This document shows positions 15,701 through 20,478 of a DNA stretch of 28,311 nucleotides, piece after piece (the stretch's first letter is position 1; every line of letters begins with the position of its first letter). This stretch comes from Candidatus Heimdallarchaeota archaeon (GTDB taxonomy: Archaea > Asgardarchaeota > Heimdallarchaeia > Heimdallarchaeales > Kariarchaeaceae). A model generated the notes under the pieces. That model saw nothing but the letters and a program-made list of their open reading frames with translations. It did no database searches and had not been told where the DNA came from. Position numbers and translations under genes: made by a program. Where the stretch lies: positions 1-28,311 of the forward strand of contig WAKA01000190.1 of the NCBI GenBank assembly GCA_015523565.1. Direction: 5' to 3'.

Positions 15701-15889
15701 ATGAGTACAACATCAAGCTTATCAGAATTTATCTGTCCAATTTGTGATGCAAGAAATGAATATGATGACATATTTGAGGTTGGGGAACTTCTAGATTGTT
15801 TTGAATGCGGAAGTGAATTGGAAGTCGTTTCCACAAATCCACTTCAAATTATAGAGTCAGAAATCGAAGCTGAAGATTGGGGACAATAA
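15701..15889 (+). CDS. lysW: Amino-group carrier protein LysW with non-canonical C-terminal Gln
   Basis: CPIC/CFECG Zn ribbon, GSELEVVS, acidic, ends EDWGQ (gaa gat tgg gga caa taa). Confidence 0.93.
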   Translation: MSTTSSLSEFICPICDARNEYDDIFEVGELLDCFECGSELEVVSTNPLQIIESEIEAEDWGQ

Positions 15890-15899
15890 GGTAAGAAAA

Positions 15900-16751
15900 A
15901 TGAAAATTGGATTTATTCATTCTCTCATTCGCAAAGATGAGAAATTATTGATCGCAGAGTTCAACAGAAGAACCAATGTAGACCTAGTTAGAATTGATTC
16001 CCGTCAATTTTTGGGGGATTTTGATGGAATGAATGCTTCATTGGAACAATTTGATGGTGCAATTGAACGGACTATAGGAATGACTGAAGGTCGATACATG
16101 GCAATGATGCTGGAAGGCTATGGTATTCCTGTCATCAATTCTTCAGAAGTGATTGCGATTTGTGGGGACAAGGTTACAACTTCTTTTCGTTTGTCACAAT
16201 CTGGAATATCCCAACCACAGACAGGCATTGCATTTTCGGCAGAGAGCGCAATGGATTTGGCAGAGAGGATGGGATTTCCTGTTGTCATCAAACCCATTGT
16301 CGGGTCATGGGGACGTCTTCTTGCCAAAATAAACGACAGGGATGCACTTGAGGCAATTGTGGAGCACAAGCTAAGATTGGGAAATTTCACCCATTCAGTC
16401 ATTTACATGCAGAGTTTTATAGAAAAGGGAAATAGGGATATACGTGCCTTTGTTGTAGGGGATCAATGCATTGCGGCCATTTACAGGGAAAGTGAACATT
16501 GGGTTACAAACACTGCGAGAGGGGGAAAAGCATTCAATTGTCCCGTTACTGATGAACTGAATGATATTGCAACAAGGGCCGCCAGTTCTGTTGGTGGGGG
16601 AATTTTGGCAGTTGACCTCATGGAAAGTCAAGATGGTTTAGTCGTGACAGAAGTCAATGCAACAATGGAATTCAAAAACAGCATTAAGACGACAGGTGTA
16701 AACATCCCTGCCCATATTGTCTCATTTGTTTTAGAGGAGGCAAGAGCATAA
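15900..16751 (+). CDS. lysX: Alpha-aminoadipate/glutamate--LysW ligase (RimK-family ATP-grasp)
   Basis: CGDK, VIKPIVGSWGRLLAK, RDIRAFVVG, HWVTNTARGG, EVNATMEFKNS; directly follows lysW. Confidence 0.93.
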   Translation: MKIGFIHSLIRKDEKLLIAEFNRRTNVDLVRIDSRQFLGDFDGMNASLEQFDGAIERTIGMTEGRYMAMMLEGYGIPVINSSEVIAICGDKVTTSFRLSQSGISQPQTGIAFSAESAMDLAERMGFPVVIKPIVGSWGRLLAKINDRDALEAIVEHKLRLGNFTHSVIYMQSFIEKGNRDIRAFVVGDQCIAAIYRESEHWVTNTARGGKAFNCPVTDELNDIATRAASSVGGGILAVDLMESQDGLVVTEVNATMEFKNSIKTTGVNIPAHIVSFVLEEARA

Positions 16752-17776
16752 TGATTGACGTATCAATTGTCGGCGGTTCTGGATTTGTGGGTGGTGAACT
16801 TTTGCGGATCCTGCTGTCTCATCCTGAAATAAATGTGAAGCAAGTTACATCGGAAAGGTATGCAGGACGGTATTTGAAAAGCGTTCATCCTCATTTACGT
16901 GGTCGTACCAACCTGAAGTTTTCAAATGCAAGTGAAATGGAATGTGTAGATTTGGTTTTTCTGGCTCTACCGCATGGTGAATCCTCTCGACGGATTGGTT
17001 ATTTTGAAGAAGTCAGTGAAAGGATTATTGATCTTTCAGCAGACTTTCGGCTTGGCAGTAATGAAGAATATGTACAATGGTATGGATTTGAACATCCACG
17101 TGAAGAGCTTTTAGATCGATTTGCTTATGGGATTGCAGAGATAAACCGAGAACAAATCAGGAATTCGCGGTTTGTTTCATCAGCAGGATGCAATGCCACT
17201 GCAAGCATCCTTTCACTTTATCCATTGGCAAAAGAGGGAATGATCTCTGATGTTTTGATTGACGCAAAAGTTGGAACTTCAGAAGGAGGACGCAAAAGTT
17301 CTGAAGCATCCCATCATCCTGTCCGAAGTGGAAGCATAAGAAGTTACAGGCCCGTTATGCATCGTCACATTGCAGAAATTGAACGTTATTTGGGACTTTC
17401 AGGGGTGAAATTCAGTTCAACTTCATTTGATTTTGTCAGGGGTGTATTGGTCACAGTTCATGCAAGTTTGACCGATAATATGAATGAAAGGGATTTATGG
17501 AGGCTTTACAGGAAATACTATTCTTCAGAGCCTTTTATAAGGTTCATTAATGACAAAAGGAGCATATTCAGGTATCCTGATCCAAAATTGGTAGCGGGAA
17601 CAAATTATTTTGATCTTGGATTTGCAGTTGATGATCATAGTGACCGGGTCGTAATTTTGGGAGCATTGGACAATTTGATGAAGGGAGCCGCGGGACAAGC
17701 AGTCCAAGCCATGAATTTAATGCTTGGGTTTGAGGAGACCATGGGACTAGAGTTTCATGGAATTTTTCCATTGTAA
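16751..17776 (+). CDS. lysY: [LysW]-aminoadipate/glutamate phosphate reductase (ArgC family)
   Basis: GGSGFVGGELLRIL, FLALPHG, IDLSADFR, AGCNATA, SHHP, DNLMKGAAGQAVQ. Confidence 0.93.
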   Translation: MIDVSIVGGSGFVGGELLRILLSHPEINVKQVTSERYAGRYLKSVHPHLRGRTNLKFSNASEMECVDLVFLALPHGESSRRIGYFEEVSERIIDLSADFRLGSNEEYVQWYGFEHPREELLDRFAYGIAEINREQIRNSRFVSSAGCNATASILSLYPLAKEGMISDVLIDAKVGTSEGGRKSSEASHHPVRSGSIRSYRPVMHRHIAEIERYLGLSGVKFSSTSFDFVRGVLVTVHASLTDNMNERDLWRLYRKYYSSEPFIRFINDKRSIFRYPDPKLVAGTNYFDLGFAVDDHSDRVVILGALDNLMKGAAGQAVQAMNLMLGFEETMGLEFHGIFPL

Positions 17777-17790
17777 AGAGGTGAAAGAGT

Positions 17791-18465
17791 ATGTGTAGAA
17801 TACTGACAGGCAAATTTAGAAGATTTGTGGAAATCAATGGCTTATTGGAAGAATTTGCCATGCAATGCCGAAACAGCGAAGAATATCAAGGGCATGGCTG
17901 GGGAATTACCTATTTTAATGGTCAGGATTGGATCACAAGAAAATGGATTGAACCTATTTGGCAATCCCTTCCAGAAGAAAAGATATTGACAAGTGTTTTT
18001 TTGGTTCATGCCAGATCCGCTTTTCGTGATGAGGGTATAAAAATAGAGAACAATATGCCATTTGAGAATGAGAGGTATGTATTTGCTTTCAATGGAGAGT
18101 TGAGGGATGTAAGACTGAAAGCAAAAGGTGAAACAGGAGCCCATAAGATATTCAACATGTATCAAAGGCATAGGGAACCAAGTCCCATGCTTAGACTGGC
18201 GAAATTGACAAATTTACTGAAAAAACGGTCTGGATATATTAAAGCAATGAATATTGCCATTCTGGATAAATTCACCCAGTTGCAGTATGTCTATTCATAT
18301 TTCAATGAAAATCCAGACTATTTCAGACTTCATCGACAAACAGGAGCAGGTTCAACAATCATAAGTTCAGTTCCATTGGTTCGCAACTGGGTTAAGGAAT
18401 TGATGAAAGATACCCAGATCACATTGAAATCAGTCATGGGAAACCAATTTCTGGAAGTAATTTAG
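17791..18465 (+). CDS. Class II glutamine amidotransferase / Ntn-hydrolase (YafJ/EgtC/Dug3-like)
   Basis: N-terminal MCR (Cys2 nucleophile), GHGWG, LVHARSA, NNMPF, FAFNG; GAGGTGA RBS. Confidence 0.88.
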   Translation: MCRILTGKFRRFVEINGLLEEFAMQCRNSEEYQGHGWGITYFNGQDWITRKWIEPIWQSLPEEKILTSVFLVHARSAFRDEGIKIENNMPFENERYVFAFNGELRDVRLKAKGETGAHKIFNMYQRHREPSPMLRLAKLTNLLKKRSGYIKAMNIAILDKFTQLQYVYSYFNENPDYFRLHRQTGAGSTIISSVPLVRNWVKELMKDTQITLKSVMGNQFLEVI

Positions 18466-18474
18466 GGTGAACAA

Positions 18475-20478
18475 ATGAGGCGAATAATAAAAATCGGCGG
18501 AGGAAGGTCAATCAATCTTGAAGGTATAGCAAGAGGGCTTTCGAAGCTTGAGGGTGAAAACATAATTGTTCTTGGAGCAAACGCCCTTCGTGATGAGTTT
18601 GCGTTTAGGCTCGGTTATAAGAAAAAAACCATTAGGTCTGTTTCAGGAGTTGAGAGTGTATTTACTGATGATGAAATGATGGACTTGATTAATTTGTCCT
18701 ATTCCGGCATAAGAAGAAACAGGTTTGTTGAAATGTGCCACACTTATGGGATAAATGCAATTGGTCTTTCAGGGATTGATGGAGGATTAATTCAAGGAAA
18801 AAAGAACAAAGGCATAAGAACGATTATCAATGGAAAGAAGAAGGTGATCAGGGATCAAAGCGGTAAACCTGTAAAAGTCAACGTAAAATTGCTTGAACAA
18901 TTATTGGTCAGCGGATACACTCCTGTGATAACGATTCCCATTTTGGGGCAGGACAATGAAATTTTGAATACAGAAAATGATCAAATTGTTTCATTGCTTC
19001 AAAGGGAAATGCTGGCTGATGAGGTAATTCATTTTATTGAAGCAAATGGGATAATTGGTGATGATGGAGGCACAATTTCCCAATTGGAAAAAGATGATCT
19101 TGAAATCCTTGTTAAAAATTCGGATGGAAGGTTTCGAAGGAAACTGATGACTTTTCAATCCATCTTGGAAAATTCTGCGGTCATTCGAGTTGTCGATGGC
19201 AGGGGTGATTGCCCAATAACTGATTTAATTGAGGGAAAAGGGACAACCTTGAATGTGCGGATGGGTACAAGAGAAAATTTGGAAAGAGTGATGACTGAAA
19301 ACATTGAAACAGAAAAATCTCTTTCAGTATTGGTCACCAATAAGAGAAATATTTCATTGGAAAGGGGCAAGGGTTTGTATGTTTGGGATTTGACTGGTCG
19401 AAAGCTTCTTGATTGCAGTGGGGGATGGGGGGTTGCGTTGGTTGGTCATTCCAATGATTCAGTTATTCAGGGACTTATTCGTCAAATGAGCCGTATAATG
19501 ATAGCGCCTATAACATTTGGGAATTCATCAAGGCTTTCATTGATGAGGAAATTGGTTGAAATTACACCTTCTAGATTAAATCGTGTATTTTTAGCTAATT
19601 CAGGAACGGAAAGCATTGAGGCGGCAATTAAATTTGCATTGCAAAGCACAGGTCGCAAAAGAATTGTATCTGCAACTAAGGCATTTCATGGACGGTCACT
19701 TGGAGCGCTATCGGTTACGCATTCCCCAAGATACAGAAATCCATTCAAGGGTTGGTTGAATGAAGAAAATGTTGATTTTATTTCATTTAACTCGCTGAAT
19801 TCATTGGAAGAGAAAATAACAGGAGAAACCGCCGCAGTGATTTTGGAACCAGTGCAAGGTGAAGGAGGAGTCAATCTTGCAAAAACGGAGTTCATAAAGG
19901 CGATACGGAAAAGATGTGATGACGTGGGGGCATTGTTGATTTTTGATGAGGTTCAGACAGGATTTGGAAGAACTGGAAGAATGTTTGCTTTTGAGTGGTA
20001 TGGCATTGAGCCTGATATTTTGTGTTTGGCTAAAGGAATTGCTGGAGGATTTCCGATGGGAGCTGTGTTGGTTAACAACAAAGTCAATATCCAACTTGGT
20101 TCCCATGGTTCAACATTTGGGGGTAATCCAATGGCTTGTGCCGCGGCACTTGCCTCCTTGAATTTCATAATTGAAAACAATCTTGTTGGGCAATCGGAAA
20201 TAATTGGAAAGTATTTCCTGAAAAAGCTTGAAGATGAAATTTTACCGTTTCCAAATGTCAGATCAGTTAGGGGGAAAGGACTCATGATTGCTGTTGAATT
20301 GAAGCGTTCAAACAAGGAACTGTCTAATTATATGCATGAAAATGGCATTATTGTGATTCCAACAGGAAGAAATGCAATCCGTTTTCTTCCCCCTCTTATA
20401 ATTGAAGAAGCAGAAATTGATTTTATTGTTTCAGTATTGAAAGAAGGGTTACAGAAAGGGATGAAATTCAAGGATTAG
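18475..20478 (+). CDS. lysZ/lysJ: Fused [LysW]-aminoadipate/glutamate kinase (LysZ) and semialdehyde aminotransferase (LysJ)
   Basis: N-terminal [24 protein letters not shown] (amino-acid kinase). C-terminal [53 protein letters not shown] (class III PLP aminotransferase). No internal stop. Confidence 0.9.

What the first reader, a model, noticed from the sequence alone, without database searches (positions are those of the whole stretch)
15701..18465. LysW ending in Gln (EDWGQ) co-encoded with an Ntn-amidohydrolase: candidate Pup/Dop-like activation of an amino-group carrier protein
Seen: lysW ends gaa gat tgg gga CAA taa (15872-15889), giving EDWGQ. A class II glutamine amidotransferase with intact Cys2 lies between lysY and lysZ with very short gaps (14 nt and 9 nt) and its own RBS. 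Established: LysX activates the gamma-carboxyl of the C-terminal Glu of LysW (EDWGE), and Gln has no free gamma-carboxyl. In actinobacterial pupylation, Pup-Gln must be deamidated by Dop before ligation. YafJ/EgtC/Dug3-type Ntn hydrolases cleave gamma-glutamyl amides. Inference: this GATase converts LysW-Q to LysW-E, adding a maturation or regulatory step that I do not know to be described for the LysW pathway.
Basis: partly seen in the sequence, partly recalled or inferred. Interest (0 to 1): 0.9.

Follow-up and report, generated by a model that had tools for sequence, protein, structure and literature searches.

The report
Gln-ended LysW with EgtC-like hydrolase
This Asgard archaeon's carrier-protein (LysW) amino-acid operon really does encode a carrier ending in glutamine and a cysteine amidase, but that amidase most likely replaces the missing release enzyme LysK, and glutamine-ended carriers also turn out to be common where no such amidase exists.

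Summary
lysW (15701-15889) ends GAA GAT TGG GGA CAA TAA, giving EDWGQ. A Cys2 Ntn-hydrolase gene (17791-18465) lies between lysY and a lysZ-lysJ fusion. All five relatives that carry the operon keep both features.

The Dop-like reading is only partly supported.
- The amidase belongs to a large EgtC-like family found in 573 species genomes. In the 80 loci fetched it sits between lysY and lysZ wherever flanks allow, bar three.
- Of 62 linked LysW genes, 46 end in Glu and 16 in Gln, with at least 10 switches on a LysY tree.
- None of 20 such genomes, nor this one, has a LysK above the family cut-off.
- Gln-ended LysW is also common without this amidase. In 37 of 101 Nitrososphaeria genomes it stands beside LysX and LysK, and no amidase homologue was found.

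Best reading (0.55): the enzyme hydrolyses gamma-glutamyl amides at the LysW C-terminus. It would release ornithine or lysine in place of LysK, and would convert LysW-Gln to LysW-Glu in passing.

This scan reported the operon type before on other DNA. Several of those reports said the Gln end occurs only in amidase operons; my data contradict that. I found no paper describing either feature.

The parts
15701..15889 (+). lysW, a 62-aa amino-group carrier protein. It has a Cys4 zinc ribbon (C12, C15, C33, C36) and an acidic tail ending EDWGQ.
   Evidence: Pfam PF21344 scores 47.5 bits. TIGR01206 scores 47.3 bits, below its cut-off of 53.2. It is the only LysW found in the 90%-complete genome.
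15884..15886 (+). CAA codon for the C-terminal Gln, at the position of the canonical attachment Glu.
   Evidence: Gln is conserved in the five related genomes that have the operon. Both CAA and CAG are used across species.
15900..16751 (+). lysX, the ATP-grasp ligase that loads the carrier.
   Evidence: TIGR02144 LysX_arch scores 333.2 bits against a cut-off of 275.6. Pfam RimK and LysX_preATP_grasp also match.
16751..17776 (+). lysY/argC-type semialdehyde dehydrogenase.
   Evidence: TIGR01850 scores 378 bits. Pfam Semialdhyde_dh and Semialdhyde_dhC_1 match.
17778..17784 (+). GAGGTGA ribosome-binding site, 6 nt upstream of the amidase start codon.
17791..18465 (+). 224-aa stand-alone Cys2 Ntn hydrolase with a class II amidotransferase fold, EgtC-like. 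Proposed [LysW]-gamma-glutamyl amide hydrolase.
   Evidence: The AlphaFold model has pLDDT 94.7. The best PDB match is EgtC 4zfl/4zfj, TM 0.75. Invariant residues are C2, R3, W57, R75, P90, N101, G113 and G116. The position between lysY and lysZ holds in the 80 loci fetched, wherever flanks allow, bar three.
18475..20478 (+). lysZ-lysJ fusion, joining an amino-acid kinase to a class III aminotransferase.
   Evidence: Pfam AA_kinase covers residues 1-234 and Aminotran_3 covers 292-657. The LysJ models score about 400 bits.

Best explanation
The window carries a LysW (amino-group carrier protein) operon of a widespread but undescribed type: lysW-lysX-lysY-amidase-lysZ(J), with no lysK. The window's genome shares a genus with a MAG labelled Heimdallarchaeota.

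Shown:
- The operon architecture is conserved across many phyla.
- The amidase has an Ntn fold and keeps a glutaminase-type catalytic set.
- Genomes with this operon lack a recognisable LysK.
- Linked LysW genes end in either Glu or Gln, and the two have been exchanged repeatedly.

Inferred: the amidase is a [LysW]-gamma-glutamyl amide hydrolase.
- Cys2 attacks the gamma-carbonyl of the C-terminal residue of LysW.
- Arg75 holds that residue's free alpha-carboxylate.
- Asn101 and Gly102 form the oxyanion hole.
- The Asp that binds the free alpha-amino group of glutamine in true amidotransferases is an invariant Gly (G116). This fits a glutamyl residue whose amine is in peptide linkage to LysW Gly61.

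Its main turnover would be the last step of the pathway: LysW-gamma-Orn/Lys to LysW-Glu plus the free amino acid, which is the job of the M20 enzyme LysK elsewhere. LysW-Gln is the smallest substrate of the same kind (gamma-glutamyl-NH2). The same enzyme would therefore deamidate newly made LysW-Gln once, after which the carrier cycles as LysW-Glu. That would make a Glu-to-Gln change nearly neutral, which fits the repeated switching.

In LysK-type operons with Gln-ended LysW (Nitrososphaeria and another Asgard lineage), the conversion must be made by something else, most simply LysK itself.
For: Architecture.
- The order W-X-Y-amidase-Z(J) is seen in the window and five relatives.
- It is seen in a Melioribacter genome and a gammaproteobacterial MAG.
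- It is seen in the 80 loci fetched out of 573 matching species genomes, spanning Binatia, Ignavibacteriota, Bacteroidota, Gammaproteobacteria, Thermodesulfobacteriota, Gemmatimonadota, Calditrichota and archaeal MAGs.
- No other gene family is conserved across these loci; the most widespread occurs in 19 of 80.

LysK.
- 0 of 20 amidase-type genomes, about ten of them complete chromosomes, reach the TIGR01902 cut-off of 163 bits. Their best scores range from none to 105 bits.
- The window's own genome reaches 107 bits at best.
- LysK-type genomes score 200-319 bits: 80 of 101 Nitrososphaeria, plus the Thermus, Deinococcus, Haloferax and Sulfolobus controls.
- Only 2 of 80 amidase loci have any M20 gene within 10 kb.

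Enzyme.
- The closest solved fold is EgtC, a gamma-glutamyl amide hydrolase (E 2.5e-10, TM 0.75), followed by YafJ-like proteins and the PurF and GlmS glutaminase domains.
- Cys2, Arg75, Asn101 and Gly102 are invariant or nearly so in 85 diverse members.
- The family motif G-x-x-G116-A-E-K aligns to G-S-T-D-S-E-V of PDB 3mdn, so Gly takes the place of the canonical Asp.
- The amidase is basic (median pI 8.6; window 9.5) and LysW is acidic (pI 4.05).

Glu and Gln.
- There are 46 Glu ends and 16 Gln ends in amidase operons.
- A LysY tree needs at least 10 switches, and at least 4 are forced by strongly supported branches.

Established chemistry. LysX links the substrate to the gamma-carboxyl of the terminal Glu, and an E54A carrier causes arginine auxotrophy (PMC10433800). 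LysK is the pathway's hydrolase (PMC12998189).
Against: - No biochemical data exist for any member of this amidase family.
- The window's genome and its congener encode a generic ArgE/DapE-family deacylase (TIGR01910, 260 bits). It is unlinked to the operon and could in principle act as a LysK.
- The genome is only 90% complete.
- Gln-ended LysW is common with LysK and without the amidase. The amidase is therefore not needed for Gln-ended carriers in general. The idea that LysK deamidates LysW-Gln in those genomes is untested.
- The Asp-to-Gly argument rests on one profile alignment to one PDB sequence, plus textbook knowledge of PurF and GlmS.
- Which amino acid this operon makes is unresolved. 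argF is present. No homocitrate synthase or lysA reaches its family cut-off.
Confidence: 0.55

Rival explanations
1. The amidase is a dedicated, Dop-like LysW-Gln deamidase, acting as a maturation or regulatory step. Product release is done by some unlinked M20 deacylase.
For: The terminal Gln cannot be activated by an ATP-grasp ligase. The enzyme has glutaminase-type residues and lies in the operon. The window's genome has an ArgE/DapE-family deacylase elsewhere.
Against: 46 of 62 operons with the amidase encode LysW-Glu, which needs no maturation, yet they keep the enzyme in the same slot. Several such genomes have no credible M20 candidate at all. Their best TIGR01902 scores are none, 28 bits and 34 bits. 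Gln-ended LysW exists in many genomes without the amidase.
Confidence: 0.08
2. Gln-ended LysW is used as it is. In these lineages LysX would ligate the substrate to the alpha-carboxylate of the terminal residue, as RimK-type relatives do. The side chain, Glu or Gln, would then serve only for recognition, and no deamidation would occur.
For: Gln ends are stable across whole clades that have LysK and no amidase: 118 of the 120 best homologues, and 37 of 101 genomes. LysX belongs to the RimK family, which uses alpha-carboxylates. Free exchange of Glu and Gln would be expected if the side chain is not the attachment site.
Against: Gamma-linkage is established for Thermus, Sulfolobus, Thermococcus and Natrinema carriers (PMC10433800). 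The amidase keeps the Arg that binds a free alpha-carboxylate and loses the Asp for a free alpha-amine. That pattern is expected for a gamma-linked C-terminal glutamyl substrate. Close relatives with Glu and with Gln carriers would also need the same regiochemistry.
Confidence: 0.12
3. The amidase has another role in the pathway. It could proofread mis-loaded carriers, for example by removing the wrong amino acid. It could also act as a glutaminase supplying ammonia or glutamate. Release would then be by an unknown enzyme.
For: Stand-alone class II amidotransferase-fold proteins have varied and mostly unknown functions. The family scores below the Pfam and EgtC cut-offs.
Against: No synthase partner and no other conserved gene accompanies it. 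Its strict placement inside the operon, together with the lack of LysK in the same genomes, is most simply explained by substitution. Loss of the alpha-amine-binding Asp argues against free glutamine as the substrate.
Confidence: 0.1

Closest known systems
LysW/ArgW amino-group carrier pathway (Thermus thermophilus LysWXZYJK; Sulfolobus, Thermococcus and Natrinema ArgW/LysW)
   Same: It has a small Cys4 zinc-ribbon carrier with an acidic EDWG tail. It has a LysX ATP-grasp ligase, a LysZ kinase, a LysY reductase and a LysJ aminotransferase, all in one operon.
   Different: The carrier ends in Gln rather than the Glu that carries the substrate. There is no LysK. An unrelated Cys-Ntn hydrolase sits inside the operon. 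LysZ and LysJ are fused.
LysK, the [LysW]-lysine/ornithine hydrolase (M20 metallopeptidase, ArgE/DapE family; TIGR01902, NF003367)
   Same: The proposed reaction is the same: hydrolysis of the gamma-glutamyl isopeptide bond that releases Lys or Orn and regenerates LysW-Glu. In the genomes compared, those with the amidase operon lack LysK, and those sampled with LysK lack a true amidase-family member.
   Different: There is no homology. LysK is a metal-dependent M20 enzyme, whereas this protein is a Cys N-terminal-nucleophile hydrolase. The function is inferred and has not been assayed.
EgtC (ergothioneine gamma-glutamyl-hercynylcysteine sulfoxide hydrolase; PDB 4zfj, 4zfk, 4zfl; TIGR03442)
   Same: It is the best structural match (TM 0.75). 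Both are stand-alone Ntn hydrolases of about 225 aa with Cys2 that cleave a gamma-glutamyl amide without passing on ammonia.
   Different: Identity is 12%. The TIGR03442 score is 24 bits against a cut-off of 219. The gene context is LysW, not egt. The position of the canonical alpha-amine-binding Asp (as in 3mdn, PurF and GlmS) is Gly. The presumed substrate is a protein C-terminus.
Pup/Dop (actinobacterial pupylation)
   Same: The logic is shared. A small protein is encoded with a C-terminal Gln that must become Glu before its gamma-carboxyl can be ligated. Dop is also the enzyme that later cleaves the isopeptide bond, which parallels the proposed 'release enzyme also matures the carrier' idea.
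   Different: Dop has a carboxylate-amine-ligase fold and depends on ATP. It is unrelated to Ntn hydrolases or M20 enzymes. Deamidation of LysW-Gln has not been shown in any organism.

Membership tests
LysW/AmCP carrier protein (PF21344, TIGR01206) | Profile match to the LysW zinc-ribbon domain. | tested here: met
   PF21344 scores 47.5 bits against a cut-off of 27. The stricter TIGR01206 scores 47.3 bits, below its cut-off of 53.2.
LysW/AmCP carrier protein (PF21344, TIGR01206) | Four zinc-binding Cys and an acidic tail with the EDWG motif, encoded next to lysX. | tested here: met
   C12, C15, C33 and C36 are invariant in 47 sequences. The tail reads ...EAEDWG-. lysX starts 11 nt downstream.
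LysW/AmCP carrier protein (PF21344, TIGR01206) | A C-terminal Glu whose gamma-carboxyl carries the substrate (EDWGE). | tested here: not met
   The encoded terminus is Gln. Whether the mature protein ends in Glu cannot be told from sequence.
Class II (Ntn) glutamine amidotransferase fold | An N-terminal nucleophile Cys directly after the initiator Met. | tested here: met
   The protein starts Met-Cys-Arg. C2 is invariant in 85 family members.
Class II (Ntn) glutamine amidotransferase fold | The four-layer alpha-beta-beta-alpha Ntn fold. | tested here: met
   The model has pLDDT 94.7. Foldseek matches EgtC, YafJ-like 1te5, 3mdn, PurF and GlmS with probability 1.00.
Class II (Ntn) glutamine amidotransferase fold | An Arg that binds the substrate alpha-carboxylate, and an Asn-Gly oxyanion hole. 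| tested here: met
   R75 and N101 are invariant and G102 is nearly so. They align with the H-x-R and N-G motifs of 3mdn and EgtC. Equivalence to PurF R73/N101/G102 is from my own knowledge.
Class II (Ntn) glutamine amidotransferase fold | An Asp that binds the free alpha-amino group of glutamine (PurF D127, GlmS D123, motif [ST]D[ST]E). | tested here: not met
   Invariant G116 aligns with the Asp of the 3mdn motif 'STDSE'.
Class II (Ntn) glutamine amidotransferase fold | A fused or partner synthase domain that accepts the ammonia. | tested here: not met
   The protein is a 224-aa stand-alone. No conserved partner gene was found in 80 loci.
Class II (Ntn) glutamine amidotransferase fold | A Pfam GATase_4 or GATase_6 score above the gathering cut-off. 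| tested here: not met
   The scores are 20.2 against 23 and 22 against 27.
EgtC (TIGR03442) | An equivalog-level profile score and an ergothioneine gene context. | tested here: not met
   The score is 24.4 bits against a cut-off of 218.65. The context is lysWXY-ZJ.
LysK ([LysW]-lysine hydrolase, M20) | An M20 metallopeptidase matching TIGR01902 or NF003367 above the cut-off, in the operon or elsewhere in the genome. | tested here: not met
   The best score in the window's genome is 106.8 bits against 163.1, and that protein is a generic ArgE/DapE deacylase. 0 of 20 other genomes with the amidase operon reach the cut-off.
Pup/Dop-type activation | Enzymatic deamidation of the C-terminal Gln to Glu before ligation. 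| not testable with these tools
   This needs mass spectrometry of the carrier with and without the enzyme. The sequence shows only that the Gln is encoded.

The most novel reading that the evidence does not exclude
Gln-capped carrier proteins are obligatory pro-forms, not neutral variants. The pathway's own release hydrolase would uncap them: the Ntn amidase here, and LysK in Nitrososphaeria and other Asgard archaea. This would be a Pup/Dop-like logic in primary amino-acid biosynthesis. In ammonia-oxidising archaea the lysine carrier beside LysX-LysK ends in Gln, while in most of them a second carrier ends in Glu (beside argG in the one locus read). There the cap could gate or separate lysine flux from arginine flux.
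Probability: 0.25. Interest if true: 0.8.

Novelty: new variant of a known kind. Interest (0 to 1): 0.7.

Why it matters
The LysW pathway is a textbook case of carrier-protein amino-acid biosynthesis. Its terminal Glu (EDWGE) is treated as invariant and essential. Two things here depart from that picture, and I could find no paper on either.

1. A non-homologous cysteine amidase occupies the operon in hundreds of species that lack LysK. That would be a case of non-orthologous replacement of the final step.
2. The carrier is often encoded with Gln at the attachment site, including across the abundant ammonia-oxidising archaea. This implies either an undescribed deamidation step or a different ligation chemistry.

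Both questions can be tested directly with a few recombinant proteins and mass spectrometry. Both affect how lysine and arginine prototrophy is inferred from genomes of uncultured Asgard archaea, Binatia, Ignavibacteria and Thaumarchaeota.

Tried and rejected
- **Complex prediction** of the amidase with LysW gave no verdict. The score was 0.45, but a control with an unrelated protein in place of the amidase scored 0.52. It counts neither for nor against binding.
I relied on conservation across species instead.
A closer 39-sequence alignment worked.
- **A word-indexed homologue search** with the window's LysW alone found only 3 proteins.
- **A short DWG[EQ]-stop pattern** across 151 Asgard genomes was noisy. 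Its controls also matched, and 4 of the 5 places I fetched were false. Only the G219 locus was used.
- **The LysX 'GSWGR' motif** named in PMC10433800 was not found near the C-terminus of these LysX proteins with a simple pattern. No conclusion was drawn.
- **Thaumarchaeal hits to the amidase profile** (25-90 bits, about 250 aa). The three best, which I inspected, belong to a different subfamily. They are not near LysW genes and lie beside proteins I did not identify.
- **Sequencing error or pseudogene** as the cause of the Gln end was considered and rejected.
- **Exclusive pairing** of the Gln end with the amidase was considered and rejected.
Full report
**1. The observation**

The 62-aa ORF at 15701-15889 ends gaa gat tgg gga caa taa, which reads EDWGQ. 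It matches the Pfam LysW zinc-ribbon model at 47.5 bits against a cut-off of 27.

It is followed by four genes:
- lysX at 15900-16751 (TIGR02144, 333 bits);
- lysY/argC at 16751-17776;
- a 224-aa ORF at 17791-18465 that starts Met-Cys-Arg;
- a lysZ-lysJ fusion at 18475-20478.

This is the only LysW in the 90%-complete genome. The genome shares a genus with a MAG labelled Candidatus Heimdallarchaeota.

**2. The Gln end is real**

Five related genomes of the same family carry the operon. Their LysW identity to the window's falls as low as 45%. All end in EDWGQ and keep the gene order W-X-Y-amidase-Z(J). Across species the Gln is written with both CAA and CAG. Read mapping was not possible.

**3. 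What the Cys2 protein is**

Pfam GATase_4 and GATase_6, and the EgtC model, match only below their cut-offs.

An exhaustive profile search found a distinct family of proteins of about 210-225 aa. It has 105 representatives at E below 1e-30 and 720 at E below 1e-3. A word-indexed search listed 2206 proteins.

An AlphaFold model built on 85 diverse members has pLDDT 94.7. Its best solved match is EgtC, the ergothioneine gamma-glutamyl amide hydrolase (TM 0.75, E 2.5e-10). Next come YafJ-like proteins and the glutaminase domains of PurF and GlmS.

C2, R3, W57, R75, P90, N101, G113 and G116 are invariant, and G102 is nearly so. In a profile alignment to PDB 3mdn, the family's G-x-x-G116-A-E-K lies over G-S-T-D-S-E-V.

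From my knowledge of PurF (C1, R73, N101, G102, D127) and GlmS (C1, R73, N98, G99, D123), I read this as follows:
- the nucleophile, the alpha-carboxylate clamp and the oxyanion hole are kept;
- the Asp that holds the free alpha-amino group of glutamine is replaced by an invariant Gly.

That pattern is what one expects if the glutamyl residue to be attacked is the C-terminal residue of a protein, with a free carboxylate and an acylated amine. This step is inference.

**4. Where the family lives**

A scan of one genome per species found 573 genomes with a relative, and the best 80 loci were fetched.
- In all of them the gene directly precedes lysZ wherever sequence is available.
- It directly follows lysY except in three loci that hold only amidase-Z-J (L065, L075, L076). 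In a handful of loci (L087, L127, L129, L132) the contig ends too close upstream to tell.
- Many Ignavibacteriota and Bacteroidota loci also carry a homocitrate synthase after lysW, so those operons make lysine.
- Only 2 of 80 loci have any M20 gene within 10 kb.
- No other gene family is shared by more than 19 loci.

**5.

LysW was visible in 62 of the 80 amidase loci. 46 end in EDWGE and 16 in EDWGQ. Melioribacter has Glu and a gammaproteobacterial MAG has Gln.

On a LysY tree of these 62 species, the Glu or Gln state needs at least 10 changes. At least 4 of them are forced by strongly supported branches, and some occur between very close relatives. Most operons that keep the amidase therefore have nothing to mature.

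**6. The converse: Gln ends without the amidase**

A metagenome scan for EDWGQ-TAA gave 25 LysW genes.
- Several lie in canonical operons with no amidase and with an M20 gene beside lysX. Examples are HCS-W-X-M20 together with X-Y-Z-J (L142, L146, L171, L186) and W-X-Y-Z-J-M20 (L156).
- Two have the amidase (L187, L200).

A profile of the LysK-type Gln sequences retrieved 2840 proteins. 118 of the best 120 end in EDWGQ, and sources name them Nitrososphaera, Nitrosopumilales and Thermoproteota. The query was built from Gln-ended sequences, which slightly favours Gln.

One thaumarchaeal contig reads argG-ArgW(EDWGE)-X-Y-Z-J ... HCS-LysW(EDWGQ)-LysX-LysK. Its LysK scores 272 bits.

In a sample of 101 genomes of that class:
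- 37 have EDWGQ-stop and 80 have EDWGE-stop;
- all 37 Gln genomes have LysK above the cut-off; in every case I compared it lies about 0.9 kb from the Gln stop codon, giving W(Gln)-X-K;
- none of the 37 has even a weak match to the amidase profile at E up to 1e-5.

Eighteen other genomes do have weak matches. The three best, which I inspected, are a different subfamily of about 250 aa and are not near LysW genes.

Another Asgard lineage has W(Gln)-X-Y-Z-J-LysK, with LysK at 285 bits.

The Gln end is therefore not tied to the amidase. Several earlier reports of this scan said it occurs only in amidase operons. My data contradict that.

**7. What the amidase does track**

LysK (TIGR01902, cut-off 163 bits) was not found above the cut-off in any of 20 amidase-type genomes, about ten of which are complete chromosomes. 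Their best scores range from none to 105 bits. It was not found in the window's genome either, where the best is 107 bits.

That best protein is a generic ArgE/DapE deacylase, unlinked to the operon. It remains a caveat for this genus.

By contrast, LysK-type genomes score 200-319 bits. Among the well-known control genomes, only Thermus, Deinococcus, Haloferax and Sulfolobus match.

**8. Mechanism**

Putting this together, the best-supported reading is that the Ntn amidase is the release enzyme of this operon type. It would hydrolyse the gamma-glutamyl amide at the LysW C-terminus, freeing ornithine and/or lysine and regenerating LysW-Glu.

LysW-Gln is the minimal substrate of that kind. It would be converted once and would then cycle as LysW-Glu. 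This explains why Glu and Gln are exchanged so freely.

The literature establishes the background:
- linkage is to the gamma-carboxyl of the terminal Glu;
- LysX recognises the EDWGE tail;
- an E54A carrier is non-functional (PMC10433800);
- LysK is the pathway's hydrolase (PMC12998189).

The basic amidase (pI 9.5) and the acidic LysW (pI 4.05) are compatible with binding. The complex prediction gave no verdict.

What this operon makes is open. argF is present at 403 bits. No homocitrate synthase or lysA reaches its cut-off. Ornithine for arginine is the safer guess, possibly with lysine as well.

**9. Rivals**

- **A dedicated Dop-like deamidase.** This is unlikely given sections 5 and 6.
- **Use of LysW-Gln without deamidation**, through the alpha-carboxylate. 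This cannot be excluded and would explain the stable Gln in Nitrososphaeria. It conflicts with the known gamma-linkage and with the amidase's residue pattern.
- **A proofreading or glutaminase role.** This is possible but leaves the pathway without a release step.

**10. Novelty**

Searches of the paper library found nothing that links LysW with deamidation, amidotransferases, Ntn hydrolases or EgtC, and no paper containing 'EDWGQ'. Subscription journals are not covered.

The operon type is thus a new variant of the known LysW system. Earlier work in this scan already reported it on other DNA. What this report adds:
- the Asgard instance;
- the residue-level argument (Asp replaced by Gly);
- the count of Glu/Gln switches;
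- the correction that Gln-ended carriers are just as much a feature of LysK-type operons.

Noticed in passing
L261:3001-12133 (thaumarchaeal contig); also class-level: In 35 of the 37 Nitrososphaeria genomes with a Gln-ended LysW, a Glu-ended carrier (EDWGE-stop) is also present. In the one locus read (L261), the Glu-ended one lies beside argG-ArgX-Y-Z-J and the Gln-ended one beside homocitrate synthase-LysX-LysK. One Nitrososphaera genome (G061) has two Gln-ended carriers. The Gln cap may mark the lysine carrier.
   Followed up: partly
L266:3351-8546 (Asgard genome G219, another family of the same phylum): A canonical operon W(EIEGEDWGQ)-X-Y-Z-J-LysK with no amidase. LysK scores 285 bits on TIGR01902. 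The same LysW type occurs in metagenome loci L156 and L162.
   Followed up: partly
window 18475-20478; also L060, L074, L137: LysZ (kinase) and LysJ (aminotransferase) are fused into one protein of 667-694 aa in the Heimdall-type genomes and in one Gemmatimonadota MAG. A related Asgard genome (L054) and nearly all bacterial loci have them as separate genes. The two enzymes catalyse non-consecutive steps.
   Followed up: no
L058:5504-6638: In a gammaproteobacterial MAG, lysX of the same operon type is split by a Transposase_mut gene. The second assembly (L059) also shows only a truncated 106-aa lysX piece, at its contig start.
   Followed up: no
L056:7159-7831 (genome G002, same genus as the window): The amidase gene is in two overlapping frames of 123 and 110 aa. 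This is either a frameshift or an assembly error.
   Followed up: no
L187:4690-9350: A different LysW-Gln subtype has a second zinc knuckle reading C-x-E-C-x-x-R-L. Here the amidase lies after lysJ, not between lysY and lysZ. Relatives L141, L166 and L216 have the same LysW subtype, but their flanks are too short to judge.
   Followed up: no
L174:13046-13225: A LysW-like ORF ending EAEDWGQ has 13 kb on its downstream side with no lysX, Y, Z or J detected. It is either an orphan carrier or belongs to a split operon.
   Followed up: no
own genome G000: C155:12949-14043, C147:558-1325, C204:14410-15315: The genome has ornithine carbamoyltransferase at 403 bits. It has no homocitrate synthase over the cut-off (184 against 414 bits) and no diaminopimelate decarboxylase over the cut-off (76 against 298 bits). 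How it makes lysine is unclear. The genome is 90% complete.
   Followed up: partly
L067, L082, L095: MAGs labelled Candidatus Woesearchaeota (DPANN) carry the full amidase-type operon with homocitrate synthase. In their LysY sequences they cluster among bacterial operons. This suggests lateral transfer or mis-binning.
   Followed up: no
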